A DNA stretch of 64,000 nt from Actinocrinis sp. (GCF_035650855.1 NZ_DASRGV010000061.1:299-64298); one strand, 5' to 3'. Shown: positions 40,777 to 54,933, counted from the first letter of the stretch. Numbers and translations: made by a program. The notes: generated from the letters alone by a model not told the origin.

Positions 40777-40819
40777 CCGAGACGCTGTCGAGGCGTCATC
40801 GAGGAGCTGTCAGCACAGT
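40777..40819 (+). promoter_or_regulatory. SARP-type promoter of the C-domain gene
   Basis: CCGAGAC (40777), TCGAGGC (40788), TCGAGGA (40799) in 11-bp phase; 8 bp; -10 CACAGT (40814-40819); the ATG at 40826 sits at the predicted +1. Confidence 0.75.
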
Positions 40820-40825
40820 GGTCGG

Positions 40826-42070
40826 ATGGGTAGTGCTTGGCCGCCGGTCCAAACGGTGCTCGAGATCAGCGGATTCGCGGACGTCGCAGCGTTGCAGCGG
40901 GCCGTTGACACCGTGTTCCGGGCGCACCCCCACCTCCTGCGCGGATTCGGCCGTACCGCGCACGGCAGCCTGATATCCGTCGAGCGACGTGACGCGGTAC
41001 CGCGGCTGCGCGCGGTGGACTTGCGCGAATACCCGGCGGGGCATCGGGAAGCCGCGGCATCGCGGCTCGAGGAGCACGAACGCTGCGAAGAGTTCGCCCT
41101 CGGCGCGCCGCCGCTTGTCAGGCTCCTGTTGATTCGCACCGGCGATCGGGAGCGGCGCTTGGCCGTGACGAGTCATCGCCTGCTCCTTGACGACTGGTCT
41201 CACGCGGCCTTGATTCGCGCCGTGCTCGCCGCGTTCCGCGCGGGCTGGGGCAATGAGGGCACGGATCGCGGCACCGCTCGGCAGTGCACGCTCGACGGCC
41301 GGACCGCCGAGCCCGCCAGGACCACGCTCCGCGCCGCGGATCAGCGCCTGGAAACGGACGCGCACCGCGGTTTCGATCTCGCTGCCCCGTGCGGCACCGA
41401 GGACCCGGTTCGGTTGACCCGCGAACTGCCGCGCGAGCTGACAAGGCGTATTGAGCTGCGTGCGGCCGAGTTGGGGGTCGCCGCGGAAAGCGTCGTGCAC
41501 GCCGCGTGGGCGTTCGCGTTGAGCCGATTGACGGGACGCCGGGACGTCGTCTTCGGGGCGACGGTGACCGTGCCGCGAACCGGTTCGTCGCACGATCCCA
41601 CGGCGCTCGATGTGACGCGCGCGATCCTGCCCGCGACGGTTCGCGTGGAAGCCGAGGGATCGCCCGGCGACCTGCTGCGCGCCGCATCACGGCACACCAT
41701 CGACAGCGCTCCACGCCGGCGCGGCGACCGGACCGATCCGTGCTGGGACGCCGAACGGCGCGCATCTGACACTGTCGCGGTACTCGAACCCGAGCCGATC
41801 GGACCGGTCATGCCACGGCTCGGTATCCGCATCAGTACGTTGAGTATGTTTGATGCGAAGCCCTTCCCGTTGAGCTTCTCGATCGTGCCCGGTCCGTCGT
41901 GGATCGCGCGAGTGGACTTCCAGCCCGCCGCGCTGCCGGCGCGCGTCGCGCGATCCGGACTCGGCCACGCGGTGGCATTCCTGGAAGCGGCCGCCTATGC
42001 GCCTGATTGCCGGTTGGACCGGATCGACGACCGTCGAGCCGTCGGGGTCCGATCGGCGCGCGCCGCGTAG
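40826..42070 (+). CDS. Stand-alone NRPS condensation-like domain with a degenerate active site
   Basis: DVAALQRAV..VFRAHPHL, FALGAPPLVRLLL, SHRLLLDDWS (canonical HHxxxDGWS), AAWAFALSRLTGRRDVVFGATV; atypical codon usage. Confidence 0.75.
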   Translation: MGSAWPPVQTVLEISGFADVAALQRAVDTVFRAHPHLLRGFGRTAHGSLISVERRDAVPRLRAVDLREYPAGHREAAASRLEEHERCEEFALGAPPLVRLLLIRTGDRERRLAVTSHRLLLDDWSHAALIRAVLAAFRAGWGNEGTDRGTARQCTLDGRTAEPARTTLRAADQRLETDAHRGFDLAAPCGTEDPVRLTRELPRELTRRIELRAAELGVAAESVVHAAWAFALSRLTGRRDVVFGATVTVPRTGSSHDPTALDVTRAILPATVRVEAEGSPGDLLRAASRHTIDSAPRRRGDRTDPCWDAERRASDTVAVLEPEPIGPVMPRLGIRISTLSMFDAKPFPLSFSIVPGPSWIARVDFQPAALPARVARSGLGHAVAFLEAAAYAPDCRLDRIDDRRAVGVRSARAA

Positions 42071-42292
42071 CGCCGCCAGGCTTTGCTCAGTCCTGCTTGG
42101 CGCTGTGGTGAGCCGTTCGCCCGGCCGCGCCGCCTTCAGGCTCCAAGTGCAGGGCGTGCATCGTGAATTCGAGCGGGATCCGCCCTATCGCCATGGCTGA
42201 GCCAACGGCGCCGAGACCGTACGCGATCCAGCGCCAGGTGAGGCTTTTCACCGTTTGAGGTACTCCGACGGAAGTCATGCGCACACTGTGCG

Positions 42293-43429
42293 TCAGGCCG
42301 CTTGAGCCGGAGTCAGATCCGGCTGCACGAGCGGCGGGTAGTCGATATAGCCGGCCGCGCCGCCTTGGTAGAAGCTCGTCGGATCAGGCTCGTTATACGG
42401 ACCGCCGGCCGCGATACGCGCCGGGAGGTCGGGATTGGCGAGAAACAGCGTGCCGAGGCAGACGGCGTCCGCCATGCCGCAGGAGAGCGCCTGGCACGCC
42501 TGCTCGACCGTGGCCGCTCCGGCCTCGGGGCCGCCTGGATGGGGATTGAGGATCAGCGGGCCGCGCCACAGTTCGCGCAGCCGCTGGGTCAGCGGTCGGT
42601 CGCCGACCTCCCGTACGTGCAGATACGCCAGGTCCGAGGGCAGCGATCGCACCAGTTCCGGGTACAAGACGTCGTCATCGTCGGGCTCCATGCCGAACGC
42701 GGCGTTCCACGGCGCGATCCGGATCCCGACCCGCTGCGGTCCGAGCGCGCCGGCCGCCGCTTCGAGCGCCTCAAGCGCGAATCGGATCCGGTTGGCGACG
42801 CTCCCGCCGTAGCGGTCAGAGCGCTGGTTCGCGGCGGAGTCCAGGAATTGATTGACCAGGTAGCCGTTTCCCGCGTGCAGCTCGATACCGTCGAAACCCG
42901 CGTGCGCCGCCGCCTGCGCGGCATGGGCGAAGGAACCGATCGCGGCCTGGATTTGCCGGCCGGTGAGCGGGCGTGGAACAGGACACGGCACCATACCGCT
43001 CGCGGTGAACGTCTTCGCGCGTGCCGCGATCCGCGAGGGCGCCACCGGTGCGCCCCCGTCTGGTTGCAGATCGTGGTGGCTCACCCTCCCGGCGTGTACG
43101 AGCTGCGCGAATATGCGTCCACCTCGGGCGTGTACGACATCAGTAACCTGCCGCCACGATGCAATGTGCGCATCGGTGTGCAGACCGGGAGTTTTGATCG
43201 CGCTCTTGCCTTGCGCGGATACATAAGCACTCTCACTCACGATGAGGCCGGCGGCGGCACGCTGGCTGTAGTGCTCGGCCATCAGCGCGTTCGCCGTGCC
43301 GTCCGCGTTCGCGCGGCTCCGGGTGAGTGGCGCCATGACCAGTCGGTTGGCCAGCTTCAAATCGCCTATCGTCACCTCGTCGAACAGCGCGCTCGTATTC
43401 AACGTCTCAGGGGATTGAAACAGAGTCAT
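42293..43429 (-). CDS. Old-yellow-enzyme family alkene reductase (NemA-like)
   Basis: NRLVMAPLTRSR, QLVHAGRVSH, GFDGIELHAGNGYLVNQFL and RSDRYGGS..NR.RF motifs. Confidence 0.93.
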   Translation of the reverse strand: MTLFQSPETLNTSALFDEVTIGDLKLANRLVMAPLTRSRANADGTANALMAEHYSQRAAAGLIVSESAYVSAQGKSAIKTPGLHTDAHIASWRQVTDVVHARGGRIFAQLVHAGRVSHHDLQPDGGAPVAPSRIAARAKTFTASGMVPCPVPRPLTGRQIQAAIGSFAHAAQAAAHAGFDGIELHAGNGYLVNQFLDSAANQRSDRYGGSVANRIRFALEALEAAAGALGPQRVGIRIAPWNAAFGMEPDDDDVLYPELVRSLPSDLAYLHVREVGDRPLTQRLRELWRGPLILNPHPGGPEAGAATVEQACQALSCGMADAVCLGTLFLANPDLPARIAAGGPYNEPDPTSFYQGGAAGYIDYPPLVQPDLTPAQAA

Positions 43430-43959
43430 CAGAGCGCTGCCGCGTCGGCCAGCACCTGATCGACGAGCGCGGCGAACTTCGCCAGGGTCTCACCGGGGCT
43501 GGGACCATCCAGCGCCGCGCGCATCGACGCGGCCCATTCGCCGTGCTTGTGGAGCTTCTCGTGCGACAGCTCGACGATGCAGCGGTGCGGACCGTCCGGG
43601 GTGAAGGACACCACGATCTCGCTGGCCCTTTCGTCGTCCTCGATCGGCCGCCAGCGCCCGTCGATCCGCCAGGACAGCGCGATCCGAACCGGCGGCTCCC
43701 AGGCCAGGACCCGGCCCCAGTCGGCGACGACGCCGTCCGCGTCCTCCTCGTACCACCGGCCGCCCGGCCGCTTCTCGAACTCGATCCGGATCCGCCGGCC
43801 GGGCACCAGCTTGTGGTTGGCCGGCCACCAGCCGAGGGGGCGATCGGCGAAGATCTCGAACGCGCGCTCGGCGCGGACCGGAACCGTCACATGCTTGCGC
43901 ACCGGTGGAACCGACGCCGCGTCGGCGTCCGGCTCCGCCTGCCAGGACGAGGTGGACAA
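43429..43959 (-). CDS. SRPBCC/AHSA1-family protein
   Basis: TTG start with GGGAGG RBS; AFEIFA...WWP, GGRWYE, WGRVLAWEPP.RI.LSW; its stop overlaps the OYE start (TGATG). Confidence 0.88.
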   Translation of the reverse strand: MSTSSWQAEPDADAASVPPVRKHVTVPVRAERAFEIFADRPLGWWPANHKLVPGRRIRIEFEKRPGGRWYEEDADGVVADWGRVLAWEPPVRIALSWRIDGRWRPIEDDERASEIVVSFTPDGPHRCIVELSHEKLHKHGEWAASMRAALDGPSPGETLAKFAALVDQVLADAAAL

Positions 43960-43994
43960 GGGAACCTCCCGGATCGGCGGTACAGGGCGCCGCG

Positions 43995-44153
43995 ATGCTC
44001 CCGCGCCGAACTCGCCGCGCGGTGGAGCCGGGATGGAGTGCGCCGCCGCTCCGGACGCCTGATCGACCCGCGGCGCCCGGGATGCCGCGCCCGCCGCGGT
44101 CGATCCGCTCTCCGGCGCGGCTGCACCGTGCGTCGAGCCGATCCGCGCACGCT
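43995..44153. promoter_or_regulatory. Divergent promoter region with SARP-like phased heptamers on both strands
   Basis: Plus: TCGATCC (44100) and TCGAGCC (44133, 33 bp apart), 8 bp, CACGCT (44148). Minus (weaker): TCCATCC (44037), TCCACCG (44026), GCGAGTT (44015), 8 bp, GAGCAT (44000-43995). Confidence 0.55.
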
Positions 44154-44186
44154 GCCGGCACCGAACCGTCGATCCGGGGAGCGCTG

Positions 44187-45332
44187 GTGAGAATCGAAGA
44201 CGTCTACATCCGAGGCACGGGCGTGCGATTGCCCGCGCGGCTGATGGTGCAGGACGCCGTCGCTTCAGGCGAGTGCGATCCGCAGCTGGTCGCGCGTACG
44301 GGAGCCGTCTCGGTCTGCATCTCGGCCGACGAGTCGGCAGCTGAGATGGCGGTCTGCGCGGCCCGTGACGCGCTGCGCCGCGCCGGATCAGCCCCCGACG
44401 ACATCGAGCTCATCCTGCACGCCGACACCTACCACCAGGGCCAAGACCTGTGGCCGGTGGCCTCCTACATCCAGCGCGAGACCGTGCGCAATCAGTGCCT
44501 CGCGGTCGAGATCCGGCAGATGTCCAACGGCGGCCTGGCGGCGCTCGACCTGGCTTGCGCCTACCTTCGCCGGGCCGAACACCGGGCGGATGCGCTCTTG
44601 ACCGCCGCCGACAGGTTCTGCCCTCCGGGGATCGACCGCTGGCGCACCGATCCGGGCACGCCGTACGCGGACGGCGCCGCGGCCTTGGTCCTCTCCCGGC
44701 GCGGCGGCTTCGCCCGGCTGCTTTCGGTGGCGGTCACCGCGGACTCGGAACTCGAGGAGATGCACCGCGGCGAGGAGCCGTTCAGCCCGGCTCCGCTGAG
44801 CATCCGCACTCCCGTGGACTTCGCCGCCGCCAAGCGCTTCTTCACCAGCCGCTACGGCCTCTCCTTCGCGATCGGACGCACCACGGCCGGTCAGCGCGCC
44901 GTCGTCAAGGAGGCGCTGGCCGACGCGGAGCTCGAACTCGAGGAGGCGCAGTGGATCATCTTGCCGCACTTCGGCCGGCGCCGGATCGAATCCATCTACC
45001 TCCACCAGTACGGCATCCCCATCGAACGCACCACCTGGGAGTGGAGTCGCACCGTCGGCCATCTCGGCGCCGCCGACCAGTTCGCCGGCCTCGACCATCT
45101 GGTGTCCACCGGGGCGGCCCGGCCCGGCGATCACTGTGTCCTGATCTCGGTCGGCGCCGGATACAGCTGGGGCGCCGCCGTCGTGCAGATCACCGAGCAG
45201 CCCGCCTGGAGCGCGCAGCGCGCGGGCTTCGCCGCGGACGCCGCGGATGGAACGGCACCTCGAACAGAACCGGGCCGCGCTGAAGCAGCGTGCTTGGCCG
45301 ACGGCCCCACCCAGAGAAAGGACCAGCCTTGA
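44187..45332 (+). CDS. Ketoacyl-ACP synthase III-like enzyme with Ser at the nucleophile position
   Basis: VYIRGTGVRLP, ELILHADTYHQG..LWP.ASYI, EIRQMSNGG (Ser where FabH has Cys), DRWRTDPG..Y.DG.AALVLS, LPHFG and GHLGAADQ. Confidence 0.88.
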   Translation: MRIEDVYIRGTGVRLPARLMVQDAVASGECDPQLVARTGAVSVCISADESAAEMAVCAARDALRRAGSAPDDIELILHADTYHQGQDLWPVASYIQRETVRNQCLAVEIRQMSNGGLAALDLACAYLRRAEHRADALLTAADRFCPPGIDRWRTDPGTPYADGAAALVLSRRGGFARLLSVAVTADSELEEMHRGEEPFSPAPLSIRTPVDFAAAKRFFTSRYGLSFAIGRTTAGQRAVVKEALADAELELEEAQWIILPHFGRRRIESIYLHQYGIPIERTTWEWSRTVGHLGAADQFAGLDHLVSTGAARPGDHCVLISVGAGYSWGAAVVQITEQPAWSAQRAGFAADAADGTAPRTEPGRAEAACLADGPTQRKDQP

Positions 45333-46537
45333 CCGAGACGGCATCTGAGACCGCGCTGTTCCCCTGGTTCCGCGGCTGCCCGATGAAGGCGCCCGAGCAG
45401 TACGCCACGCTGCGCGAGAGCGAGCCGGTGGCCCGGGTGAAGCTGGCGACCGGGCGCGAGGCGTGGGTCGTCACCTCCTACGAGTACGTCAAGCAGGTAC
45501 TCACCGACCCGCGCTCCAGCTCGGACCGCGCCCACGAGGGCTTCCCGTACTACATTCCGATCCCCGAGCAGTTCAAGACCGACTGCTCCTTCATCGGCTG
45601 GGACCCGCCCAAGCACACCCTGCACCGGCGCATGGCCGCGCTGTCCGGCGAGTTCACCAAGAAGCGGGTGCTGGACATGCGCCCGCGGATGCAGGAGATC
45701 GTCGACGAGTGCATCGACACGATGATCGCCAAGGGCTCGCCCGCCGACCTGGTGCACGAGGTCGCGCTGAAGGTCCCGCTGACCATCGTCTGCGGCATCC
45801 TCGGGGTGCCGAACGAGGACCAGGCGACCCTGCACTCCTTCACCGAGGTGCTGTTCGGCGGCGGCAGTACCGCCGAGGACCGCGAGCGGGCGATCACCGG
45901 GTTCGGCCAGTACCTGCAGAAACTGGTAGAGCGCAAGGAGCAGGAGCCCGGCGACGACCTGATCAGCCGGATGATCGCCAAGTATCGCGCCGAGGGGATC
46001 TACGACCGCAGAGAGATGTGCAACGTCACGCGCCTGCTGCTCAACGGCGGCCACGAAACCAGTGCCGCGATGATCGCGCTCAGCACCATGACGCTGCTTG
46101 AACACCCCGACCAGCTGGAGCGGATCAAGGCGGACCCGTCGCTCGTCCCGGCCGCGGTCGAGGAGCTGTTGCGCTACCTCTCCCCGGGCGACCTGGCCAC
46201 GTCCCGGGTCGCACTGGAGGACATGCAGATCGGCGACGTCACCGTGCGCAAGGGCGAGGGCATCATCGTGCTCGGCATGGCCGCCAACCGGGACCCCGCC
46301 GTGTTCGACGAGCCCGACACCCTCGACATCGACCGGGAGTCGCGCAACCACGTCGCGTTCGGGCACGGCATTCACCACTGCATCGGCGCGGAGATCGCGC
46401 GGGTGGAGCTCGCCATCGTCATCAGCACCCTGTTCCGGCGGCTGCCGAACCTGCGGCTGGCCAAGCCGTGGAACGAGCTGCGCTACAAGGACGGCAACGT
46501 CATGTACGGCGTCTACGAGATGCCGGTCGCCTGGTAA
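45329..46537 (+). CDS. Cytochrome P450 (CYP105-like)
   Basis: TTG start overlaps the KSIII stop, GAAAGGA RBS; GGHETS (I helix), EELLR, ANRDP and AFGHGIHHCIG heme motif. Confidence 0.96.
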   Translation: MTETASETALFPWFRGCPMKAPEQYATLRESEPVARVKLATGREAWVVTSYEYVKQVLTDPRSSSDRAHEGFPYYIPIPEQFKTDCSFIGWDPPKHTLHRRMAALSGEFTKKRVLDMRPRMQEIVDECIDTMIAKGSPADLVHEVALKVPLTIVCGILGVPNEDQATLHSFTEVLFGGGSTAEDRERAITGFGQYLQKLVERKEQEPGDDLISRMIAKYRAEGIYDRREMCNVTRLLLNGGHETSAAMIALSTMTLLEHPDQLERIKADPSLVPAAVEELLRYLSPGDLATSRVALEDMQIGDVTVRKGEGIIVLGMAANRDPAVFDEPDTLDIDRESRNHVAFGHGIHHCIGAEIARVELAIVISTLFRRLPNLRLAKPWNELRYKDGNVMYGVYEMPVAW

Positions 46538-46605
46538 CGCGGCGCGCTGACCGCGGCCGCACTGCCGCTCGGACCCGGACGGTGACTCGGCCGAGGCCGC
46601 ACCAG

Positions 46606-46630
46606 GCCGGCGGGGCTCGAACCCGCCGGC
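46606..46630 (+). terminator. Hairpin between the P450 and ferredoxin genes
   Basis: GCCGGCGGG-GCTCGAA-CCCGCCGGC. Confidence 0.5.
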
Positions 46631-46678
46631 GAAGTTCTCGGACCCGACCGCCGCGTCGGCGAAGCTCCCGGAGGTCTG

Positions 46679-46999
46679 ATGGCCACGATCACCTACCGCC
46701 ACCCGGACGGGACCACGACCGTGCTGGACGTGCCCTCCGGAAGCAATGTCATGCGCGGCGCCCTCGCCAACGGCGTGGAGGGCATCGAGGGCGAGTGCGG
46801 TGGCGACGGCATCTGCGCCACCTGCCACGTGTACGTCGAGCACTGCCCGATCGCCTTCCCGCCGGCCGACGAGAACGAAGACGAGCTGCTCGACTGCACC
46901 GCCAGTCCGCGCCGCGACAACAGCAGGCTCTCCTGCCAGCTGCCGATCACCGACGAACTGAGCACCCTGGTGGTGCTCCTCCCGGAAAAGCAGGTTTGA
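46679..46999 (+). CDS. 2Fe-2S ferredoxin (putidaredoxin-type)
   Basis: ECGGDGICATCHV...RLSCQ. Confidence 0.95.
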   Translation: MATITYRHPDGTTTVLDVPSGSNVMRGALANGVEGIEGECGGDGICATCHVYVEHCPIAFPPADENEDELLDCTASPRRDNSRLSCQLPITDELSTLVVLLPEKQV

Positions 47000-47002
47000 C
47001 AC

Positions 47003-48199
47003 ATGGCCGGAACGCCGATCGTCATCGTCGGCGCGGGGCAGGGCGGCATGCAGGTCGCGGCCTCGCTGCGGGAGGCGGGCTTCGACGGTCCGCTCACCCT
47101 CGTCGGGGCCGAGCCGCACCCGCCCTACGACCGCCCGCCGCTGTCCAAGCGGTACCTCAACGGAGAGGCCGACGCGGCTGCCCTCGCCCTGCGCACGCCG
47201 GAGTTCTACCAGACCCAGAACATCGATCTTCGAACCGGCACGCGGGCCGTCGGGATCGACCGGGCGCACAGGGTCGTCGTGCTCGACTCGGGCGCCGCTC
47301 TGCTCTACGAGCGGTTGGTCCTGGCCACCGGCAGCATCCCGCGGTGCCTGCCGGTGCCCGGCGCCGACCACTCCGACGTGCTGGTGCTGCGCACCCTCGC
47401 CGAGGCCCGCAGCCTGCGCGACCGGCTGGCCGAGCCGCGGCGGGTCGCGGTGATCGGCGCGGGCTTCACCGGCCTCGAAGTCGCGGCCGCCGCGCGCACG
47501 GCAGGCCACGAGGTGACCGTCATCGAGGCGCTCGACCGGGTTCTGGCCCGCGCGGTCTCGGCGCCGGTCTCCCGCCACGTGACCCGGCTGCACCGCGGCC
47601 GCGGCGTCAGCATCCTGTTCGGCAGGCGGGTCGAGGCGATCGAGGGCGACCCGGACGGGCCGCTGCGCGGCGTGCGGCTGGCCGGCGGCGAGAACGTGCC
47701 CGCGGACCTGGTCGTGGTCGGCATCGGCGTGCTGCCGGACACCGCGCTGGCCGAATCGGCCGGGCTCGCCGTGGCCGACGGCGTCGTGGTCGACGAATAC
47801 CTGCGCACCAGCGACCCCGCAATCCACGCGATCGGCGACTGCGCCCTGTTCCCCAGCCCATACGCCGCCGACCCGCTGCGGCTGGAATCGGTGCAGAACG
47901 CGGTCGACCAGGCCAAGTGCGTGGCCCAGTACATCGCAGGCGACGGCCTGGCCGCTCAGCCGTATCGCGCGGTCCCGTGGTTCTGGACCGATCAGTACTC
48001 GGACAAGATTCAGATCGCCGGGATCACTACGGGACACGACCGGGTCGAGGTGCTCGGCGAGCAGGAGCAGGGCCGGTTCTCCGTGTCCTGCTTCCGCGGA
48101 GACCGACTGGTCGGCGTCGAATCGATCAACCGGCCGGCCGAACATATCAAGGCTCGTAGGCAGCTGGCCGCCACGGGCGACCTGGCCGGCGCGCGCTGA
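47003..48199 (+). CDS. FAD/NAD ferredoxin reductase (putidaredoxin reductase-like)
   Basis: IVGAGQGG, PYDRPPLSK, VIGAGFTGLE, IHAIGDCA, RLESVQNA and PWFWTDQY motifs. Confidence 0.95.
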   Translation: MAGTPIVIVGAGQGGMQVAASLREAGFDGPLTLVGAEPHPPYDRPPLSKRYLNGEADAAALALRTPEFYQTQNIDLRTGTRAVGIDRAHRVVVLDSGAALLYERLVLATGSIPRCLPVPGADHSDVLVLRTLAEARSLRDRLAEPRRVAVIGAGFTGLEVAAAARTAGHEVTVIEALDRVLARAVSAPVSRHVTRLHRGRGVSILFGRRVEAIEGDPDGPLRGVRLAGGENVPADLVVVGIGVLPDTALAESAGLAVADGVVVDEYLRTSDPAIHAIGDCALFPSPYAADPLRLESVQNAVDQAKCVAQYIAGDGLAAQPYRAVPWFWTDQYSDKIQIAGITTGHDRVEVLGEQEQGRFSVSCFRGDRLVGVESINRPAEHIKARRQLAATGDLAGAR

Positions 48200-48227
48200 G
48201 CCGGCCTCGACAGGACGAGGAGACGAC

Positions 48228-48563
48228 GTGCCTCACATCACCTATCTGCGAGCCGACGGAACCAGCGACACCGTCGACGTCCCACTCGGCACCAGCGTCA
48301 TGCGCGGGGCGGTACGGGAGGGCGTGGCAGGTATCGTCGCGGAGTGCGGCGGCGCCGGCATGTGCGGCACCTGCCACATCTTCCTGCCGGAGCATGAGCG
48401 GGTCGCCCGCGGCATCACCCCGATCCACCCCCTGGAGGACGAGGTACTGGAGATCACCTCCACGCCGCGACGGGCGACCAGCAGGCTCGGCTGCCAACTC
48501 GCCGTGACTGAGCAGTGCGACGGGCTCACCGTGGAGCTGCCCGAACACCAGGTCCTGCCTTAA
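48228..48563 (+). CDS. Second 2Fe-2S ferredoxin
   Basis: ECGGAGMCGTCHI...SRLGCQ. Confidence 0.95.
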   Translation: MPHITYLRADGTSDTVDVPLGTSVMRGAVREGVAGIVAECGGAGMCGTCHIFLPEHERVARGITPIHPLEDEVLEITSTPRRATSRLGCQLAVTEQCDGLTVELPEHQVLP

Positions 48564-48594
48564 CGCGCCACACGTCGCGTCGCGCCGAACGAAA

Positions 48595-48635
48595 GCCTCG
48601 GGGCGGCATCCGGTGTCCGGATGCCGCCCCGAGGC
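48595..48635. terminator. Bidirectional hairpin between convergent genes
   Basis: GCCTCGGGGCGGCATCCGG-TGT-CCGGATGCCGCCCCGAGGC (19-bp stem). Confidence 0.88.
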
Positions 48636-48678
48636 GTTGCCGGGCCCGGCTTCGATCGGGCCCGGCTGCGGCCGTTGC

Positions 48679-49785
48679 TCAGGCCAGCAGAATGTCCGCG
48701 AAGGTCTTCGCCGGCGCCGTCTCGAAGCGCAGCGCGACGTGGCTCGCCGCGGCCACCACGTCGCGCCAGTGCCGCTCCAGCGGGTGGGACTGGGACAGGC
48801 CGTGCGTGCCGGCCGCGCGCACCAGCGCGTTGACCGCGCTCACCAGTATTTCGGCTGCCAACGCGGCATCCCGCGCGTTGCGTGCGAGCAGTTGCGGCGT
48901 GCAGTTCCCGGCATCGGCGGTCGCGGCGTTGCGCTCCACGAGCAGCCGCGCGCCGTCGATCAGCGCGGCCGACCGCGCCAGCCCTTCGTCGCCGGACGGA
49001 GTGCGGCGAGCGTGCTTGAGCAGCTCTACGCACGAGCCGAGCGCACCGAGCGCCGCGCCAAGGGCGGGCGCGACAAAGGTCAGTGTGCCCACGGCCTGGA
49101 AGGACGTGTTGTGGCAGACCGCCTGCGAGGTGCGGTTCGGCCCGGCCAGCACCTCGGCGCGCGCGACCGAGCGGTGGTCCGGCACGAAGGTCTCCGGCAG
49201 CACGACGCTGTGGCTGCCGGTCGCCCGCATGCCGGTGCTGTCCCAGGTCTGCTCGACCCGGCACGCGGACGCCGGCAGCGCGAAGAACCGCGCGTCCCCG
49301 ACTCCTTGCACCGGCCCGAGGGCGCACAGCAGTACCCAGTCGCTCCATGCGACGCCGCTCACATAGCGCCAGGTGCCGCTGACCAGCCAGCCGCCGTCGG
49401 TCTTGGTGACCGCACCGGACGGGATCAGGCCGGTGGCGATGATCGCGTCCGCTCCGTCCGCCCACAGCTCGTCCTGGCCCTCGACGGGCAGGTACGCGGC
49501 GAACCGCGCCGAATACGCCGACAGCGAGGCGAACCACGCGGTCGCGGCGCAGGCCTCGCCCACCGCGGTGACCGCGCGGGTCAGCTCGGCGAAGGTGCCC
49601 TCGGTGCCGCCGTAGCGGGCCGGCACCAGGTGCCGGGCGAATCCGGCCTCGCGTACGGCCGCGATCACCTCGGGTGACAGGTCGCCGTCCCGGTCGGCCT
49701 GCGCGGCGTTGCGGGCTGCGGACTCGGCCACGCCATGGGCCGCGCCGAGCAGCCCGGTCGAGGGTGGCGCTAGTGCAATGGACAT
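48679..49785 (-). CDS. Acyl-CoA-dehydrogenase-fold flavin-dependent monooxygenase (HsaA/ActVA-ORF5-like)
   Basis: GFARHLVPARYGG, GEACAATAW, GWLVSGTWRYVSG, WDSTGMRATGS.SV and GTHG...HPLERHWRD motifs. Confidence 0.88.
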   Translation of the reverse strand: MSIALAPPSTGLLGAAHGVAESAARNAAQADRDGDLSPEVIAAVREAGFARHLVPARYGGTEGTFAELTRAVTAVGEACAATAWFASLSAYSARFAAYLPVEGQDELWADGADAIIATGLIPSGAVTKTDGGWLVSGTWRYVSGVAWSDWVLLCALGPVQGVGDARFFALPASACRVEQTWDSTGMRATGSHSVVLPETFVPDHRSVARAEVLAGPNRTSQAVCHNTSFQAVGTLTFVAPALGAALGALGSCVELLKHARRTPSGDEGLARSAALIDGARLLVERNAATADAGNCTPQLLARNARDAALAAEILVSAVNALVRAAGTHGLSQSHPLERHWRDVVAAASHVALRFETAPAKTFADILLA

Positions 49786-49934
49786 CGCTTGCTGCCTCTC
49801 GTGCTCGGGTGGCAGGACACGCCTAGCCCGTGGCCTGCTCGATTTCGTGCGCTGATTCAGCATTCGCCGGCCCGGCGAGTACGGGGGTCCGCCGCCGGGC
49901 TCGGGTCGCGTTCGGGTCGCGGATGACCGATCGC

Positions 49935-49977
49935 AGCATCCTGGTGCGGGCTCGAACCGGGCTTGCCGCCCGCTGGA
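49935..49977 (-). promoter_or_regulatory. SARP-type promoter of the monooxygenase gene
   Basis: Minus strand TCCAGCG (49977), GCAAGCC (49966), TCGAGCC (49955) in 11-bp phase; 8 bp; -10 GATGCT. A further 11-bp-period repeat TCGGGTCGCG x2 lies at 49901-49921. Confidence 0.65.
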
Positions 49978-50041
49978 AGCGGGCCGCCCGGACGGCTCGG
50001 CACTATCCCCTTCCCGGCGGCGGCGGGCGGGTGGCGGTCGC

Positions 50042-51706
50042 TCATCCGGCGACCCCGGAGCCCGCGGCCGTGGACGCCTGTGCTTCGGTGTGCCGCTGCT
50101 CGAGCGCCGGCGGCGCGCCCCCGGGGCCGCAGGCCAGCACGTAGTCCGCGGCGTCGCTGAGGGCGAGCAGGGCGGCCGCGCCCAGGTCGCGGCCGACGCC
50201 GACCGTGCGCCAGGTGCGCCCGCCGAGACCGAACCGGATCAGCACCCTGGTCGCAGGCCGGCCGTCGTCCTCCGTGGTGATCGGCCGCGCCTCGTGGTCG
50301 AGCAGGTCCAGCGTCTCGATCTGCGGTACTGCCGGGCGCAGGGCCGCGCGCAGGGCCCGGAACAGTGCGCTGACAGGCTCGTCGGCGACGCCGGTCGCGG
50401 TCACGGTGCGGCCGTCCCGCTCGACGCGCAGCACCGCGCGTGTGGAGGTCTGCGCCCGGTCCCGGGACCCGGCCGCGGAGAGCCGCCAGGCCTCGATCTG
50501 GAAGACCCTGGGAACCGGTTCGTCGGCAAGGTGCTCCCGCAACAACAGCTCGAACGAGGCGTCGGCGGCCTCGACGGCGTAGCCGAGCCTGCCCAGCTCC
50601 TTGATCCGCAGCATCGCCCGGTTGACCCGCTCGTCCGCCGCGCGCACCTGGTAGCCGAGCTCGCGCGCCTTCAGCTCGACGGACGAGCGGCCGCCGAGGT
50701 CGGAAACCAGCACGCGGCTGCGGTTGCCGATCCGCTCCGGCTCGATGTGCTGGTAAAGGCTCGGATCCAACCGGACCGCCGAAGCGTGCAGGCCGCCCTT
50801 GTGCGCGAACGCGGAGGAGCCCACGTACGGGGCCGATGACGCCACCGGGGCGGCGGCCAGTTCGCCGATCTCGTGCGCCGTGCGCGCCATCCCGGCCAGT
50901 TGCGCGGGGGACAACAGCGCGCGTCCCTCCTTGACCGCCAGATTCGCCACCACGCTGAACAGGTTGGCGTTGCCGCAGCGCTCGCCGTAACCGTTGGCGG
51001 TGCCCTGGACCTGTCCGGCACCCGCGCCGACCGCGAGCATCGTGTTGGCGACGGCGCAGCCGGCGTCGTCATGGCAGTGGATGCCGACCGGGATGCCGCG
51101 CTCCGTCGTGGCGGCGACGATATCCGCAAGCTCGGTGGGCAGGGTGCCGCCGTTGGTGTCGCAGAGCACCACCTTCTCCGCTCCGGCGGCGATCGCGGTG
51201 TCTGCGACGGCGAGCGCATACGCGCGGTTCGCGCGATAGCCGTCGAAGTAGTGCTCGGCGTCCACGAAGACTCGGCGCCCCTGCGCGAGCAGCTGGCGCA
51301 CCGAGTCGCGGATCATGCGCAGGTTCTCCGCCAGGCTGGTGCGCAGCGCGATCTCGACGTGGCGGTCGTGGCTCTTGGCGACCAGCGTGACCACCGGCGT
51401 GCCGGCCTCGAGCAGCGCGAGGATCTGCGGGTCGCGGCCGGCGTCGGCGTCCGGCCGCCTGGTCGCGCCGAACGCGGCGAGTTGCGCGTGGCTGAGCTCC
51501 AGCTCGCGGGCGGCGCGCCGGAAGAAGTCCGTGTCCAGCGGTACGGCGCCCGGCCAGCCGCCCTCGATGAAGTCCACGCCGAAAGCGTCGAGCCGCCGGG
51601 CGACGGCGAGCTTGTCCGCGACGGTCAGCGACAGGCCCTCCTGCTGGACGCCGTCGCGCAGGGTGGTGTCGTAGATCTGCACCGCTCGGCGGTGGTTCGC
51701 GGCCAT
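50042..51706 (-). CDS. cimA: Citramalate synthase (DRE-TIM metallolyase, LeuA-related)
   Basis: YDTTLRDG.QQEG, FIEGGWPG, FDAEH-like VDAEHYFDG, CDTNGG, HCHDD, GYGERCGNANL and AFAHKGGLHASAV; C-terminal regulatory domain; RBS GAGGAG. Confidence 0.88.
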   Translation of the reverse strand: MAANHRRAVQIYDTTLRDGVQQEGLSLTVADKLAVARRLDAFGVDFIEGGWPGAVPLDTDFFRRAARELELSHAQLAAFGATRRPDADAGRDPQILALLEAGTPVVTLVAKSHDRHVEIALRTSLAENLRMIRDSVRQLLAQGRRVFVDAEHYFDGYRANRAYALAVADTAIAAGAEKVVLCDTNGGTLPTELADIVAATTERGIPVGIHCHDDAGCAVANTMLAVGAGAGQVQGTANGYGERCGNANLFSVVANLAVKEGRALLSPAQLAGMARTAHEIGELAAAPVASSAPYVGSSAFAHKGGLHASAVRLDPSLYQHIEPERIGNRSRVLVSDLGGRSSVELKARELGYQVRAADERVNRAMLRIKELGRLGYAVEAADASFELLLREHLADEPVPRVFQIEAWRLSAAGSRDRAQTSTRAVLRVERDGRTVTATGVADEPVSALFRALRAALRPAVPQIETLDLLDHEARPITTEDDGRPATRVLIRFGLGGRTWRTVGVGRDLGAAALLALSDAADYVLACGPGGAPPALEQRHTEAQASTAAGSGVAG

Positions 51707-51720
51707 CTTTCTCCTCTGCG

Positions 51721-52773
51721 TCACGGCGCGTGCTCTGCGGCGGCCGGAGAGCGGTCCAGGTGGTCTAGGAAGCGCGGCGCGGCGGCCGGCAGCCGAAGGC
51801 CCGCTTCGTCGCGGTAGGTGCCTCGGGCGCGATGATGCGGATGCTCGGCCGCCTCCTCGAGGCTGAGCACCGGGGTGACGCAGGCTTCCGTGCCCTCGAA
51901 CCGCGTGGCCCACGAGTCTCGGTCCGCCTCGGCGAAGCGCAGCGCGAACAGTCGGCGCAGCGCGGGCCAGTGCTCCGGGTCGTCGCGGTCGGGCAGCTCA
52001 TCCGGATCCAGGCCGAGTCCGCGCACGAACTGTGCGTAGAACCGCTCCTCCAGGGCACCCACCGCGACATGACGGCCGTCCGCGCAGGTGTACACGGTGT
52101 AGAAGGGGGCGCCGCCGTCGAGCAGGTTGCGCCCGCGCCCGCGGCCCCACTGCCCGGCCGCCGCCATCGCGGCCAGCATGGTGAGCAGGCTGGCGGTGCC
52201 GTCGACGATCGCGGCGTCGATGACCCGTCCCACCCCGGTCGTGCGGCGCTCGATCACCGCGGCCAGGACGCCGACCGCCAGCGGCAGCGCACCTCCGGCG
52301 AAGTCTCCGACCAGGTTGAGCGGCACCACCGGATCCCCGCCCTCGGGACCGATCGCGTCCAGCGCGCCGGAGAGCGCCAGATAGTTGATGTCGTGGCCGG
52401 GCGTGTGGGCCAGCGGACCGTGCTGTCCCCAGCCGGTCATCCGGCCGTAGATCAGCCCCGGGTTGCGTGCCTGGCACTCGCGCGGGCCGAAGCCGAGCCG
52501 CTCGGCCACTCCCGGCCGGAATCCCTCCAGCAGCACGTCGCAGCCCTCGACGAGGCGCAGCAGCTCGGCCAGCTCCCGCGGCCGCTTGAGATTCAACGCG
52601 ACGCAGCGCCGACCCCGGTCGAGGCCGCGGTGCCAGGAGGCGAACGGGCGTTCGCCCTCGGCCCGGTCGATGCGCACCACCTCGGCGCCCAGGTCCGCCA
52701 ACAGCGTCGCAGCGTAGGGGACGGGCCCAATCGCGGCGAGTTCCAGGACGCGCAGTCCTTCGAGCGGGCTCAT
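51721..52773 (-). CDS. CaiB/BaiF family III CoA-transferase, alpha-methylacyl-CoA racemase-like
   Basis: LEGLRVLELAAIGP, EGFRPGVAERLG, GHDINYLALSG, NLVGDFAGGA and NLLDGGAPFY motifs. Confidence 0.9.
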   Translation of the reverse strand: MSPLEGLRVLELAAIGPVPYAATLLADLGAEVVRIDRAEGERPFASWHRGLDRGRRCVALNLKRPRELAELLRLVEGCDVLLEGFRPGVAERLGFGPRECQARNPGLIYGRMTGWGQHGPLAHTPGHDINYLALSGALDAIGPEGGDPVVPLNLVGDFAGGALPLAVGVLAAVIERRTTGVGRVIDAAIVDGTASLLTMLAAMAAAGQWGRGRGRNLLDGGAPFYTVYTCADGRHVAVGALEERFYAQFVRGLGLDPDELPDRDDPEHWPALRRLFALRFAEADRDSWATRFEGTEACVTPVLSLEEAAEHPHHRARGTYRDEAGLRLPAAAPRFLDHLDRSPAAAEHAP

Positions 52774-52779
52774 GTCCGC

Positions 52780-52811
52780 AGTGTGGGATTCCCGGCTCGA
52801 CTCCCGCTGGA
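52780..52811 (-). promoter_or_regulatory. SARP-type promoter of the racemase-cimA operon (leaderless)
   Basis: Minus strand TCCAGCG (52811) and TCGAGCC (52800); 8 bp; -10 CACACT (52785-52780); the ATG at 52773 sits at the predicted +1. Confidence 0.75.
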
Positions 52812-53018
52812 GGGGACGCTCCGGCGCCCACTGCGGCGCCGGAGGACGAGAGTCGCGCATAGCGGCGCGGCTGACGATGCCTCCGCATCCGCTCGAACCG
52901 CGGCGGAGTCCCGGTCCCGGTACGCCGCAGTCCGTGGCAACCGGAGCGGAAGAGTACTGAAATGCCCGATTGGTCGGCCGGTCGGTCCGGGCCCGCCCCG
53001 CCGGACGGCAACGGCTGT

Positions 53019-53050
53019 TCGAGGAGCCTTCGAGAATGCGGACACATACT
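53019..53050 (+). promoter_or_regulatory. SARP-type promoter of the FAAL operon
   Basis: TCGAGGA (53019) and TCGAGAA (53030); 8 bp; -10 CATACT (53045-53050). Confidence 0.75.
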
Positions 53051-53142: not shown

Positions 53143-54933
53143 ATGACCGGACGCCAAACGTTCACCGAGCTGGTGCGGCGGCACGCCGCAAACCGGCCCG
53201 GACGGGACGCGCTGATCGTGGTGGACGAGACCGGCCGGACGCGGCGGATCGGCTACGCGCGGCTGGATCGTGAGTCCAGAACCCTCGCCGCGTGGCTGCA
53301 CATCCACGGCGCGACCGGCGAACGCGTGCTGATCCAACAGCCCGACGCCTACCAGTTCGCCGTGTCGCTGTTCGCCTGCCTGTACGCCGGCGCGATCGCC
53401 GTGCCCGGCCCGAATCCCAGCGGGCTGCGGCACTCCGAGCGCAGGGTGCTCGGGATCGTGCGGGACGCCGGGGTCCGCTTCGTCATGACAGACGGTCACA
53501 ACGCCGGCGCGGCCAGCCAGGTTCTCGCGCTCGGCGGCTACGGGGAGGTCACCTGTGTGGCGACGGACACGCTGCTGAGCCTGCCCTCCGCCCCGGAGCC
53601 GTCCGACTGGCGCATGCCCGAGATCAGCCCGGACGCCGTCGCGCTGCTGCAATACACCTCGGGCTCCTCCGGCGACCCGCGCGGCGTCATGGTGAGCCAC
53701 GCCAACCTGCTCGCCAACCAGGCGGCGATTCAGCAGACCCTGCGTACCACACCGGACACCGCGGTCGGCGGCTGGCTGCCGCTGCACCACGACATGGGCC
53801 TGATCGGGCAGCTCCTGCACCCGCTGTGGCTCGGCGCCACCAGCGTCCTGATGTCGCCGATCTCCTTCGCGAAGCACCCGGCCAACTGGCTGCGGCTGAT
53901 CTCCGAGCACCGGCTTGCGGTGTCCGCGGGTCCGAACTTCAGCTACGACCTGTGCCTGCGCAAGATCACCGACGAGCAGCTCTCCGGAGTGGACCTGAGC
54001 GACTGGCGCTGCGCCGTCAACGGCGGCGAACCGGTGCGCCCGGAGACCATGCGCCGCTTCGCCGAGCGCTTCGCCCCGTTCGGGCTGAGGCCCTCCGCGC
54101 TGCGCGCGGGCTACGGCCTGGCCGAGGCGACGCTGATGGTCGCCTGCACCGCGGGCGGACGGGGAGCCCCGGCGGTCGAGGCGGACCGCGCCGCGCTGGA
54201 GCAGCGTCGGCTCTGGCCGCCCGCGGCGAACCGGCCGAGCCGGACCCTGAGCAGTTCGGGGCGCGTATACGGACACGAAGTCAGGATCGTGGACCCGGAG
54301 ACCGCGGCCGAGCTGCCCGACGGCGCCGTCGGCGAGATCTGGCTGCGCGGTCCGAGCGTCGCCTCCGGCTACTGGGGCCGCCCGCGGGAGAGCGCGGAGG
54401 GTTTCGCCGCGCGCACCTGCGCCGACGAGCGCGGCTTCCTGCGCACCGGGGACCTAGGCTTCCTGAAGGACGGCGAACTGTACGTCACCGGCCGGATCAG
54501 CGATCTGATCATCGTGGCGGGACGCAACCTGCATCCGCAGGACATCGAACAGTCGATCCAGCGGATCAGCGCCCTGTTCGGCGCCGCGGTCGCCTTCCCG
54601 GTCGAGGCGGACCGCGAGCACGTGGTGCTGGTGCAGGAGGTGCGCCCCGGTTCCACGGGCGGCGAGGCGGACCTGGCCGAACTGGCGACCGCCGTGCGGG
54701 AGCGGGTGTCCGCGGAGTTCGCGGTGCAGGCCGCCGGAGTGGTACTGGTGCGGCCGGGTACGGTGCGCCGCACCACCAGCGGCAAGCTGGCGCGCAGCGC
54801 GGTGCGCTCGATGTTCCTCGAAGACCGGCTGGAACCGCTGCACGAGCTGATCGACCCCCGGATCCGGCAGCTGGTGCGGCCCAAGGGCCGGGTACGGACA
54901 GCCGGCGGGTCGGCCGGGAAGGCGGCGGCGTGA
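53143..54933 (+). CDS. Fatty acyl-AMP ligase (FAAL)
   Basis: LLQYTSGSSGDPRGVMVSH.NL, GWLPLHHDMGLIG, GYGLAEATL, FLRTGDLGF, GRNLHPQDIE and RTTSGKLAR; long insertion after the EATL motif, typical of FAALs. Confidence 0.93.
   Translation: MTGRQTFTELVRRHAANRPGRDALIVVDETGRTRRIGYARLDRESRTLAAWLHIHGATGERVLIQQPDAYQFAVSLFACLYAGAIAVPGPNPSGLRHSERRVLGIVRDAGVRFVMTDGHNAGAASQVLALGGYGEVTCVATDTLLSLPSAPEPSDWRMPEISPDAVALLQYTSGSSGDPRGVMVSHANLLANQAAIQQTLRTTPDTAVGGWLPLHHDMGLIGQLLHPLWLGATSVLMSPISFAKHPANWLRLISEHRLAVSAGPNFSYDLCLRKITDEQLSGVDLSDWRCAVNGGEPVRPETMRRFAERFAPFGLRPSALRAGYGLAEATLMVACTAGGRGAPAVEADRAALEQRRLWPPAANRPSRTLSSSGRVYGHEVRIVDPETAAELPDGAVGEIWLRGPSVASGYWGRPRESAEGFAARTCADERGFLRTGDLGFLKDGELYVTGRISDLIIVAGRNLHPQDIEQSIQRISALFGAAVAFPVEADREHVVLVQEVRPGSTGGEADLAELATAVRERVSAEFAVQAAGVVLVRPGTVRRTTSGKLARSAVRSMFLEDRLEPLHELIDPRIRQLVRPKGRVRTAGGSAGKAAA

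What the first reader, a model, noticed from the sequence alone, without database searches (positions are those of the whole stretch)
40777..53050. A SARP-type regulon signature ties five or six promoters together, yet no SARP gene is in the window
Seen: heptamers of TCGAG-like consensus in 11-bp phase, the last one exactly 8 bp before an xAnnnT -10, at the C-domain gene (3 repeats, CACAGT), FAAL operon (2, CATACT), racemase-cimA (2, CACACT), monooxygenase (3, GATGCT), KSIII operon (2 at 33 bp, CACGCT), and weakly at SRPBCC-OYE and the precursor (CCGAACA-N8-CACTAT, 63883-63863). In two cases the ATG falls at the predicted +1 (40826, 52773), implying leaderless mRNAs. Known: this geometry is that of ActII-ORF4/DnrI-type SARP targets. 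It fixes the left boundary of the cluster at about 40.78 kb and predicts the activator needed to switch it on.
Basis: partly seen in the sequence, partly recalled or inferred. Interest (0 to 1): 0.72.

Follow-up and report, generated by a model that had tools for sequence, protein, structure and literature searches.

The report
SARP activator boxes, polyketide cluster
The repeated TCGAG motifs are real docking sites of the textbook kind for a pathway-specific antibiotic activator (SARP), whose gene starts 43 bases beyond the window end; together they map the regulon of a silent trioxacarcin-like polyketide cluster in an uncultured soil actinomycete.

Summary
Observation confirmed. Five promoters in the window carry TCGAGnn heptamers in 11-bp phase, with the last repeat exactly 8 bp before an xAnnnT -10. 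They precede the C-domain gene, KSIII operon, ACAD-like oxygenase, CoA-transferase/cimA and FAAL operon.

The predicted activator exists. A 271-aa small SARP (OmpR-type HTH + BTAD) starts 43 bp past the window end, divergent from the precursor-peptide gene.

Three more strict boxes lie beyond the window, before KS-alpha, a SnoaL-like gene and a cyclase operon of an adjoining type II PKS. Weaker ones precede ACC-CT, a nitroreductase and a second ACAD-like gene.

- Eight strict sites fall in 4.7 kb of cluster intergenic DNA against 0.22 expected (P about 1e-10).
- The boxes are conserved in four other Actinocrinis genomes. The KS-alpha box is also kept in Streptomyces, Kitasatospora and Peterkaempfera.
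- None of the eight promoters has a -35.

The SARP is 68% identical to TxnRg2 of the trioxacarcin cluster.

Verdict: a well-supported but ordinary ActII-ORF4/DnrI-type regulon, a new member of a known kind. This scan has met SARP boxes before on other DNA. Binding and transcription starts remain untested.

The parts
40777..40819 (+). SARP box of the C-domain gene: CCGAGAC-N4-TCGAGGC-N4-TCGAGGA-N8-CACAGT
   Evidence: Conserved in G002, G003 and G004 as TCGAGGC-N4-TCGAGnn-N8-CACAGT while the spacers differ.
40826..42070 (+). Stand-alone condensation-domain gene. The ATG is the 7th base after the -10, so a leaderless mRNA is predicted.
   Evidence: Pfam Condensation. It is the first start codon of the frame. 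The N-terminal peptide is kept in G002 through synonymous changes, with GTG at the same place.
43995..44037 (-). Marginal SARP-like site before the SRPBCC-OYE genes: TCCATCC-N4-TCCACCG-N4-GCGAGTT-N8-GAGCAT
   Evidence: Matrix score 10.5, empirical p about 0.004 against 1500 upstream regions of the genome. Conservation not tested.
44100..44153 (+). SARP box of the KSIII operon: TCGATCC, TCCGGCG, TGCACCG, TCGAGCC in 11-bp phase, then N8 and CACGCT
   Evidence: All four heptamer positions, the 8-bp gap and CACGCT are kept in G003 and G004.
44187..48563 (+). KSIII, P450, ferredoxin, ferredoxin reductase, ferredoxin operon
   Evidence: Pfam; frame plot and gene calls.
49935..49977 (-). SARP box of the ACAD-like flavin oxygenase gene: TCCAGCG-N4-GCAAGCC-N4-TCGAGCC-N8-GATGCT
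   Evidence: Leave-one-out rank 10 of 12.4 million positions. The gene has no ortholog in the fetched stretches of the four congeners, so there is no footprint.
48679..49863 (-).
   Evidence: Pfam Acyl-CoA_dh_2/N/M.
52780..52822 (-). SARP box of the CoA-transferase/cimA operon: TCCAGCG-N4-TCGAGCC-N8-CACACT
   Evidence: All five Actinocrinis genomes keep TCCAsCs-N4-TCGAGsC-N8-CAnnCT, with the ATG 6 bases after the -10.
50042..52773 (-). A leaderless start at 52773 is predicted.
   Evidence: Pfam CoA_transf_3 and HMGL-like/LeuA_dimer; frame plot.
53008..53050 (+). SARP box of the FAAL operon: GCAACGG-N4-TCGAGGA-N4-TCGAGAA-N8-CATACT
   Evidence: An island of roughly 50 almost invariant bases in five genomes within an otherwise variable intergenic region; kept in G002 despite a 1.6-kb insertion next to it.
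53143..57360 (+). FAAL, AT-ACP didomain, phosphopantetheinyl transferase operon
   Evidence: Pfam; gene calls. No box before AT-ACP, so co-transcription is inferred.
57371..59427 (-). LuxR/NarL-type response regulator (57371-57985) and HisKA_3 sensor kinase (58114-59427): second regulatory pair of the cluster, with no SARP box
   Evidence: Pfam; matrix scores 1.5 and -0.6. Conserved next to the SARP in all relatives.
63489..63812 (-). Precursor-peptide gene (NHLP-like leader by eye), divergent from the SARP gene
   Evidence: No Pfam match.
63863..63883 (-).
   Evidence: Matrix score -4.4. The -10 is kept as CAnnAT/CAGACT in relatives, but the heptamer is not.
63891..63952 (.). Deeply conserved block between the precursor and SARP genes. 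Imperfect inverted repeat CAGTGnnGGCTCAC (63891-63905) and TCATGAGCCnnTCACTG (63936-63952) around GTGAGTTCTTCAC (63915-63927). Candidate operator of another regulator that controls the SARP gene.
   Evidence: Conserved from Actinocrinis to Streptomyces, Kitasatospora and Peterkaempfera. Function inferred only.

Best explanation
The phased TCGAGnn heptamers are the binding sites of the cluster's own small SARP. Its gene lies at window-equivalent 64043-64858 (L006:1189-2004), 43 bp past the window end.

**Proposed mechanism (inferred).** SARP protomers bind the direct repeats on one face of the helix. The last repeat ends 8 bp before the -10 and takes the place of the missing -35 element. From there the SARP recruits the principal-sigma RNA polymerase holoenzyme, as shown for AfsR at the afsS promoter.

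**Regulon (shown as sequence pattern).**
- Eight strong promoters: C-domain gene, KSIII operon, ACAD-like oxygenase, CoA-transferase/cimA and FAAL operon in the window; KS-alpha/CLF/ACP, SnoaL-like gene and cyclase/AT/KR/aromatase operon beyond it.
- Three moderate promoters: ACC carboxyltransferase, nitroreductase and a second ACAD-like gene.
- Span: about 40.8 to 76.7 kb of a trioxacarcin-like type II PKS cluster of an Actinocrinis genome.

**Not under the boxes.** The precursor-YcaO-kinase-response regulator operon and the SARP gene itself carry none. They are probably controlled upstream of the SARP.

**Leaderless transcripts (inferred).** Two transcripts, starting at 40826 and 52773, are predicted to be leaderless.

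**Shown:** motif, geometry, statistics, conservation, presence and type of the SARP. **Inferred:** binding, activation, transcription starts.
For: 1. Sites and geometry read directly from the sequence.
2. Only the spacing that puts the heptamer 8 bp from the -10 gives cluster hits: 4 by the automatic count, 5 with the oxygenase site, against 0-1 for ten other spacings.
3. Eight strict sites in 4720 nt of cluster intergenic DNA against 0.22 expected from the rest of the genome's intergenic DNA, P 1.3e-10. Their upstream phased heptamers are closer to TCGAG than those of the other 43 intergenic hits (Mann-Whitney p 2e-5).
4. Distances between TCGAG-like pentamers peak only at 11 bp (18 against 4.9). 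All four exact TCGAG pairs are 11 or 22 bp apart.
5. In leave-one-out tests each site ranks 8th-10th.
6. No upstream region among 1500 sampled elsewhere in the genome scores above 13.4. The cluster has three further non-training sites at 13.9-17.8.
7. Footprints: heptamers, the 8-bp gap and the -10 are kept while spacers and flanks vary in four congeners. The KS-alpha box is the top-scoring site in three Streptomycetaceae loci, and the ACC-CT box scores above threshold in one of them.
8. No promoter has a -35: at least 4 of 6 mismatches to TTGACA at 16-19 bp.
9. The SARP carries Trans_reg_C + BTAD. It matches the AfsR SARP domain and EmbR in the PDB at E about 1e-32. It is 68% identical to TxnRg2, the SARP of the trioxacarcin cluster (PMC5659172). 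Orthologs at 86-96% sit in the same place in four congeners.
10. Literature rule: the 3' repeat lies 8 bp from the -10 and repeats are 11 or 22 bp apart (PMC10936776). TCGAGXX repeats with 4-bp spacers are reported for ActII-ORF4 and DnrI targets (PMC6510168).
Against: - No binding, expression or transcription-start data exist for this uncultured organism.
- Plain k-mer enrichment of TCGAG in cluster intergenic DNA is only 2-fold and does not survive correction for multiple tests. The signal lies in the composite geometry.
- The whole-window count of the strict pattern is not above shuffles.
- The genome encodes 18 other BTAD proteins, so the assignment to this particular SARP rests on position and on precedent.
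- The four congeners are close relatives, so part of the conservation is shared ancestry. The deeper comparison covers only the KS-alpha and ACC-CT promoters.
- The second and third heptamers are degenerate at several promoters (KSIII, cyclase, oxygenase).
Confidence: 0.88

Rival explanations
1. The boxes are real activator sites, but a different protein binds them. Candidates are one of the 18 other BTAD/SARP-domain proteins of the genome (cross-talk) or the cluster's NarL/LuxR-type response regulator (57371-57985).
For: The genome has 19 BTAD matches. The response regulator and kinase are conserved beside the SARP in every relative examined. In the trioxacarcin cluster a kinase and a response regulator also flank the SARP (PMC5659172).
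Against: Apart from one end-of-contig fragment, the other 17 BTAD frames are 462-1215 aa and lie on other contigs. Direct repeats 11 bp apart that end 8 bp before the -10 are the SARP signature (PMC10936776). From general knowledge, NarL-type regulators use inverted or 7-2-7 heptamer pairs. A separate conserved inverted repeat in the precursor/SARP intergenic region is a better candidate site for the response regulator.
Confidence: 0.08
2. The pattern has no regulatory meaning. It arises from base composition, or from promoter cassettes copied within the cluster and kept by shared ancestry among close relatives.
For: The window-wide count of the strict pattern is not above shuffles. TCGAG itself is only 2-fold enriched. 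The four congeners are closely related.
Against: P 1.3e-10 for the eight sites in intergenic DNA. A single peak at 11 bp. Cross-validated ranks 6-8 of 12.4 million. Spacers vary while heptamers and distances are kept. The KS-alpha box is kept in three other genera. A SARP gene sits where predicted.
Confidence: 0.03

Closest known systems
ActII-ORF4 (actinorhodin) and DnrI (daunorubicin) target promoters of Streptomyces type II PKS clusters
   Same: TCGAGXX direct heptamers with 4-bp spacers (11-bp period), two or three repeats, upstream of the -10 (PMC6510168, PMC10972967). A small SARP is encoded in a type II PKS cluster and serves several operons, including divergent promoters.
   Different: The host is an uncultured Actinocrinis (Actinospicaceae by the taxonomy I recall), not Streptomyces. 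The regulon also covers starter-unit genes (FAAL, AT-ACP, KSIII, CoA-transferase/cimA). Two targets are predicted to be leaderless. No experiment has been done here.
TxnRg2 (called Txn9 by another group, from memory), SARP of the trioxacarcin cluster of Streptomyces bottropensis
   Same: 68% identity over 96% of the protein. In both clusters the SARP sits beside KS-alpha and next to a sensor kinase and a 203/204-aa response regulator. Both clusters have KSIII, an isopropylmalate-synthase-like enzyme, a CoA-transferase, a CoA-synthetase/FAAL and AlkZ-like glycosylases (PMC5659172, PMC8934636). Txn9 is listed as an activator of trioxacarcin production (PMC10972967).
   Different: The txn gene table lists no YcaO or precursor gene between the SARP and the kinase. 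I know of no published binding sites for TxnRg2. The txn DNA could not be fetched here, so its promoters were not scanned.
AfsR SARP domain on the afs box of the afsS promoter (PDB 8HVR, 8K60, 8JKE)
   Same: Homologous SARP domain (E about 1e-32). Two 11-bp direct repeats overlap the -35 region and the 3' repeat lies 8 bp from the -10. The structures show how the SARP substitutes for -35 recognition (PMC10936776).
   Different: AfsR is a large SARP with NOD and TPR domains under phosphorylation and ATP control, and it acts as a global regulator. The protein here is a 271-aa pathway-specific SARP.

Membership tests
SARP-dependent promoter (ActII-ORF4/DnrI-type TCGAGXX box) | Direct heptamer repeats with a TCGAG core | tested here: met
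   All eight strong sites have TCGAG in the promoter-proximal repeat. Upstream repeats show 0-2 mismatches at the better of two phased positions.
SARP-dependent promoter (ActII-ORF4/DnrI-type TCGAGXX box) | Repeats 11 bp (or 22 bp) apart | tested here: met
   Distance histogram peaks only at 11 bp (18 against 4.9). Exact TCGAG pairs occur only at 11 or 22 bp. At KSIII the good repeats are 33 bp apart with degenerate ones between.
SARP-dependent promoter (ActII-ORF4/DnrI-type TCGAGXX box) | 3' repeat ends 8 bp before the -10 hexamer | tested here: met
   Eight of eight sites. Other spacings give 0-1 cluster hits.
SARP-dependent promoter (ActII-ORF4/DnrI-type TCGAGXX box) | Repeats occupy the -35 region and there is no consensus -35 | tested here: met
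   At least 4 of 6 mismatches to TTGACA at 16-19 bp spacing in all eight.
SARP-dependent promoter (ActII-ORF4/DnrI-type TCGAGXX box) | A cognate SARP gene in or beside the cluster | tested here: met
   SARP at window-equivalent 64043-64858. Orthologs lie in the same place in four congeners and three Streptomycetaceae loci.
SARP-dependent promoter (ActII-ORF4/DnrI-type TCGAGXX box) | Binding by the SARP and SARP-dependent transcription from the predicted start | not testable with these tools
   Needs gel shift or footprinting, reporter assays and 5'-end mapping. No RNA run is listed for this DNA.
Small SARP (Streptomyces antibiotic regulatory protein) | N-terminal OmpR-type winged helix plus bacterial transcriptional activator domain | tested here: met
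   PF00486 at residues 23-97 (E 8e-9) and PF03704 at residues 105-250 (E 1e-40).
Small SARP (Streptomyces antibiotic regulatory protein) | Under about 300 aa, with no NOD/TPR or LuxR extension | tested here: met
   271 aa from the ATG preceded by a GGGAGG-type ribosome-binding site. A stop follows the BTAD domain.
Small SARP (Streptomyces antibiotic regulatory protein) | Sequence homology to characterised SARPs | tested here: met
   AfsR SARP domain and EmbR, E 1e-32 to 1e-33. TxnRg2, 68% identity.

The most novel reading that the evidence does not exclude
The SARP may be the output stage of a conserved three-tier switch.

- A YcaO-modified peptide, encoded divergently from the SARP gene, would be sensed by the adjacent HisKA_3 kinase and NarL-type response regulator.
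- These would act on the deeply conserved inverted-repeat block between the precursor and SARP genes (63891-63952) to turn the SARP on.
- The SARP would then fire the TCGAG-box promoters.

The cassette peptide-YcaO-kinase-regulator | SARP recurs beside KS-alpha/CLF genes in Actinocrinis, Streptomyces, Kitasatospora and Peterkaempfera. The peptide operon and the SARP gene lack SARP boxes, which fits their standing above the SARP. This would be a peptide-signal route to polyketide activation. It is distinct from gamma-butyrolactone control.
Probability: 0.25. Interest if true: 0.7.

Novelty: new member of a known kind. Interest (0 to 1): 0.35.

Why it matters
**Practical use.** The result gives a high-confidence wiring diagram for a silent, trioxacarcin-like gene cluster known only from soil metagenome bins. 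It names one small gene to express constitutively. It also lists eight to eleven promoters that should respond, predicted starts that can be checked, and cluster limits (about 40.8 to 76.7 kb) for cloning.

**A correction to the picture from the window alone.** The acyl-assembly and RiPP-like genes belong to a type II PKS cluster whose core lies beyond the window.

**Conceptually.** It is a textbook case of SARP control, extended to a little-studied genus. A specialist would not be surprised.

Tried and rejected
- **Wrong spacer in two scripts.** Searches used a pattern with 10 instead of 11 free bases. Their numbers are void and were replaced.
- **Plain k-mer enrichment.** TCGAG is 2-fold enriched (23 against 11.5). 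It is among the top pentamers but not significant after correction for 912 tests. Alone, this would not have found the motif.
- **Whole-window count against shuffles.** 6 against 4.4, uninformative. The pattern's frequency in coding DNA swings about 5-fold with spacer length modulo 3.
- **RNA evidence.** No RNA holder is listed for this DNA, so read laying was not used and no starts could be mapped.
- **TxnRg2 (P0068).** It is not on record on any contig, so the trioxacarcin cluster's own promoters could not be scanned.
- **The 12-bp palindrome TTCGGCGCCGAA at the precursor promoter (63879-63890).** Not conserved in congeners, so dropped as an operator candidate.
- **The precursor site as a degenerate SARP box.** Rejected: score -4.4 and no consistent heptamer in relatives.
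- **A second candidate before the precursor gene (score 12.4).** It has no xAnnnT -10 and was not pursued.
- **Streptomyces hoynatensis locus L053.** SARP, kinase and regulator sit beside a type I PKS. Its best-scoring sites (13.5 and 11.1) lie in an unannotated gap 6-7 kb from the SARP and were not examined.
- **Not run.** No structure prediction or complex prediction was made; they would not bear on DNA binding.

Full report
**Setting.** The window is contig C61, bases 299-64298, of a 6.2-Mb draft genome. Window-equivalent coordinates beyond 64000 are contig coordinates minus 298. They can be read in L006 and L013 (L013 position = window-equivalent minus 64000). The closest relatives are metagenome bins named Actinocrinis sp..

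Third-position GC plots, a home-made codon-likelihood gene caller and Pfam give this layout.

- Left part:
  - a 249-aa gene of no family (39995-40744, +)
  - a stand-alone condensation-domain gene (40826-42070, +)
  - OYE flavoenzyme and SRPBCC genes (42293-43959, -)
  - KSIII, P450, ferredoxin, ferredoxin reductase, ferredoxin (44187-48563, +)
  - an ACAD-like oxygenase (48679-49863, -)
- Middle part:
  - FAAL, AT-ACP, PPTase (53143-57360, +)
  - a LuxR-type response regulator and a HisKA_3 kinase (57371-59427, -)
  - ThcOx-like oxidase, YcaO and a 107-aa precursor (59589-63812, -)
- Beyond the window:
  - a SARP (64043-64858, +)
  - ACC carboxyltransferase, an alpha/beta-hydrolase, KS-alpha, CLF, ACP
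  - a SnoaL-like gene (-)
  - cyclase, AT, KR, aromatase
  - a nitroreductase (-), a second ACAD-like gene, a class V aminotransferase and an AlkZ-like glycosylase

**The observation.** Reading the five intergenic regions confirms each site to the base. The promoter-proximal heptamer is TCGAGGA, TCGAGCC, TCGAGCC, TCGAGCC and TCGAGAA. Exactly 8 bp follow, then CACAGT, CACGCT, GATGCT, CACACT and CATACT.
- Further heptamers sit 11 and 22 bp upstream. At KSIII the second good repeat is 33 bp upstream, with degenerate heptamers at the two phased positions between.
- At the C-domain gene and the CoA-transferase gene the A of the ATG is the seventh base after the -10. No ribosome-binding site is present.

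**Is it more than chance?**
- The simple count in the window is not (6 against 4.4).
- My first two genome scripts used a wrong spacer and are void.
- With the right pattern the genome holds 180 hits, of which 51 are intergenic. Eight of these lie in the 4720 nt of intergenic DNA between 40.7 and 76.9 kb, where 0.22 are expected (P 1.3e-10).
- Ten other spacer lengths give none or one in the cluster.
- The distances between TCGAG-like pentamers in cluster intergenic DNA show a single peak at 11 bp (18 against 4.9). All exact pairs are 11 or 22 bp apart.
- Plain k-mer enrichment is weak (2-fold). The signal is in the geometry, not in the word.

**Cross-validation.**
They lie before the cyclase operon (71832-71874, +), the SnoaL-like gene (71743-71785, -) and KS-alpha (68050-68092, +).
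- In leave-one-out tests every site ranks 8th to 10th.
- Among 1500 upstream regions sampled elsewhere in the genome the best score is 13.4.
- The cluster adds three non-training sites at 13.9-17.8, before ACC-CT (64900-64942), the nitroreductase (76568-76610, -) and the second ACAD-like gene (76658-76700).
- The SRPBCC site is marginal (10.5).
- None of the eight strong promoters has a -35.

**The activator.**
- A Pfam BTAD search of the genome found 19 matches. One lies on C61 just past the window.
- Its best start gives a 271-aa protein with Trans_reg_C and BTAD domains. It is homologous to the AfsR SARP domain and to EmbR (E about 1e-32).
- It is 68% identical to TxnRg2 of the trioxacarcin cluster.
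- Apart from one end-of-contig fragment, the other BTAD frames in the genome are 462-1215 aa and lie elsewhere.

**Conservation within the genus.** The cluster from cimA to the aromatase is syntenic in four congeneric genomes. SARP orthologs are 86-96% identical. The alignments show:
- The FAAL box is an island of roughly 50 almost invariant bases in five genomes. It is kept in G002 despite a 1.6-kb insertion beside it.
- The CoA-transferase box keeps both heptamers, the 8-bp gap, CAnnCT and the ATG six bases later in all five genomes.
- The KSIII box keeps all four phased heptamers and CACGCT.
- The C-domain box keeps two TCGAG heptamers and CACAGT. The leaderless start is kept in G002 only.
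- The cyclase and SnoaL boxes are also kept, with variable spacers.

**Conservation in other genera.** Loci from a Streptomyces, a Kitasatospora and a Peterkaempfera genome carry SARPs 68-70% identical. They have the same arrangement (FAAL, ACAD, AT-ACP, PPTase | regulator, kinase, YcaO, peptide | SARP, ACC, KS-alpha, CLF, ACP). Their top matrix hit is again before KS-alpha: TCCACGn-N4-sCGAGCs-N4-TCGAGAG-N8-wwCCAT. The ACC-CT box scores above threshold in L050 only, and by eye a degenerate copy is present in L051.

**Mechanism.** The literature states the rule for SARP targets: direct repeats 11 or 22 bp apart, with the 3' repeat 8 bp from the -10 (PMC10936776). It gives TCGAGXX with 4-bp spacers for ActII-ORF4 and DnrI targets (PMC6510168; PMC10972967 for two or three repeats).
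- The AfsR structures show SARP protomers on the two repeats replacing -35 recognition and contacting RNA polymerase.
- I infer the same here.
- The precursor-YcaO-kinase-regulator operon and the SARP gene have no box. They share a deeply conserved intergenic block with an imperfect inverted repeat. This suggests, without proof, that they stand above the SARP in the hierarchy.

**Borders.**
- On the left, genes at 22.9-39.9 kb are 84-99% identical in G002 and G003.
- The 249-aa gene is 88% and 66% identical, and the C-domain gene about 60%.
- Codon usage also becomes atypical from 40.8 to 43.4 kb.
- This agrees with the first box at 40777.
- On the right, the last (moderate) boxes are at about 76.6-76.7 kb.

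**What the cluster resembles.** The gene table of the trioxacarcin cluster (PMC5659172) lists KS-alpha, CLF, ACP and MAT. It also lists a DnrI-like SARP, a kinase, a 203-aa regulator, a CoA synthetase, an aromatase, KSIII, an isopropylmalate-synthase-like enzyme and a CoA-transferase. AlkZ-like glycosylases protect the producer (PMC8934636). All of these have counterparts here. The YcaO and precursor genes do not appear in that table.

**Limits.**
- No RNA run is listed, and no binding or expression data exist.
- The assignment to this SARP rather than a paralog rests on position, precedent and co-conservation.
- The scan has reported SARP-type boxes before on other DNA.
- This one is the classic TCGAG type in an actinomycete type II PKS cluster. 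It is therefore well supported but ordinary.

Noticed in passing
window 44187-57360 with L013:1030-17550 (window-equivalent 65030-81550): The window's acyl-assembly genes belong to a type II PKS cluster whose core (KS-alpha, CLF, ACP, cyclases, KR, aromatase) lies beyond the window. Gene content parallels the trioxacarcin cluster table: SARP, kinase, regulator, KSIII, IPMS-like, CoA-transferase, CoA-synthetase, AlkZ-like glycosylase. This suggests a DNA-alkylating aromatic polyketide with an unusual starter unit.
   Followed up: partly
window 57371-63812 plus L006:1189-2004; L050, L051, L052: The cassette precursor peptide-YcaO-HisKA_3 kinase-LuxR regulator, divergent from a small SARP and followed by ACC/KS-alpha/CLF/ACP, recurs in Streptomyces, Kitasatospora and Peterkaempfera genomes. 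In these loci no ThcOx-like oxidase was called and the YcaO gene abuts the kinase gene. A Streptomyces hoynatensis locus (L053) keeps only SARP, kinase and regulator, beside a type I PKS.
   Followed up: partly
window 63891-63952: The most conserved non-coding block of the cluster. Two arms of an imperfect inverted repeat (CAGTGnnGGCTCAC and TCATGAGCCnnTCACTG) flank GTGAGTTCTTCAC, between the precursor and SARP genes. It is kept from Actinocrinis to Streptomyces. It may be an operator for the response regulator or another protein.
   Followed up: partly
window 40826-43429: The C-domain and OYE genes have lower third-position GC (about 0.74-0.88 against 0.9 or more nearby), and my codon-likelihood caller missed the C-domain gene. 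In G003, G004 and G008 only the first 140-158 residues of the C-domain protein find a match. G003 and G004 still keep the SARP box upstream.
   Followed up: partly
G002:C104, about 36100-38050 (L034:14100-16050): G002 carries an extra 1.6-kb coding insertion between the CoA-transferase and FAAL genes. It leaves both SARP boxes intact on either side. I did not run a family search on it.
   Followed up: no
whole genome: The count of TCGAG-N(x)-A-N3-T in coding DNA swings about 5-fold with x modulo 3: 137-180 hits at x = 8, 11, 14 against 527-857 otherwise. This is a codon-phase effect that can mislead motif statistics in high-GC genomes.
   Followed up: yes
L050:10883-10934: In the Streptomyces locus the called ATG of the ACC carboxyltransferase lies 6 bases after the -10 (TACGTT) of its SARP-like box, so that transcript is predicted to be leaderless there. 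In the window's genome the same gene has a leader of at least 54 nt.
   Followed up: no
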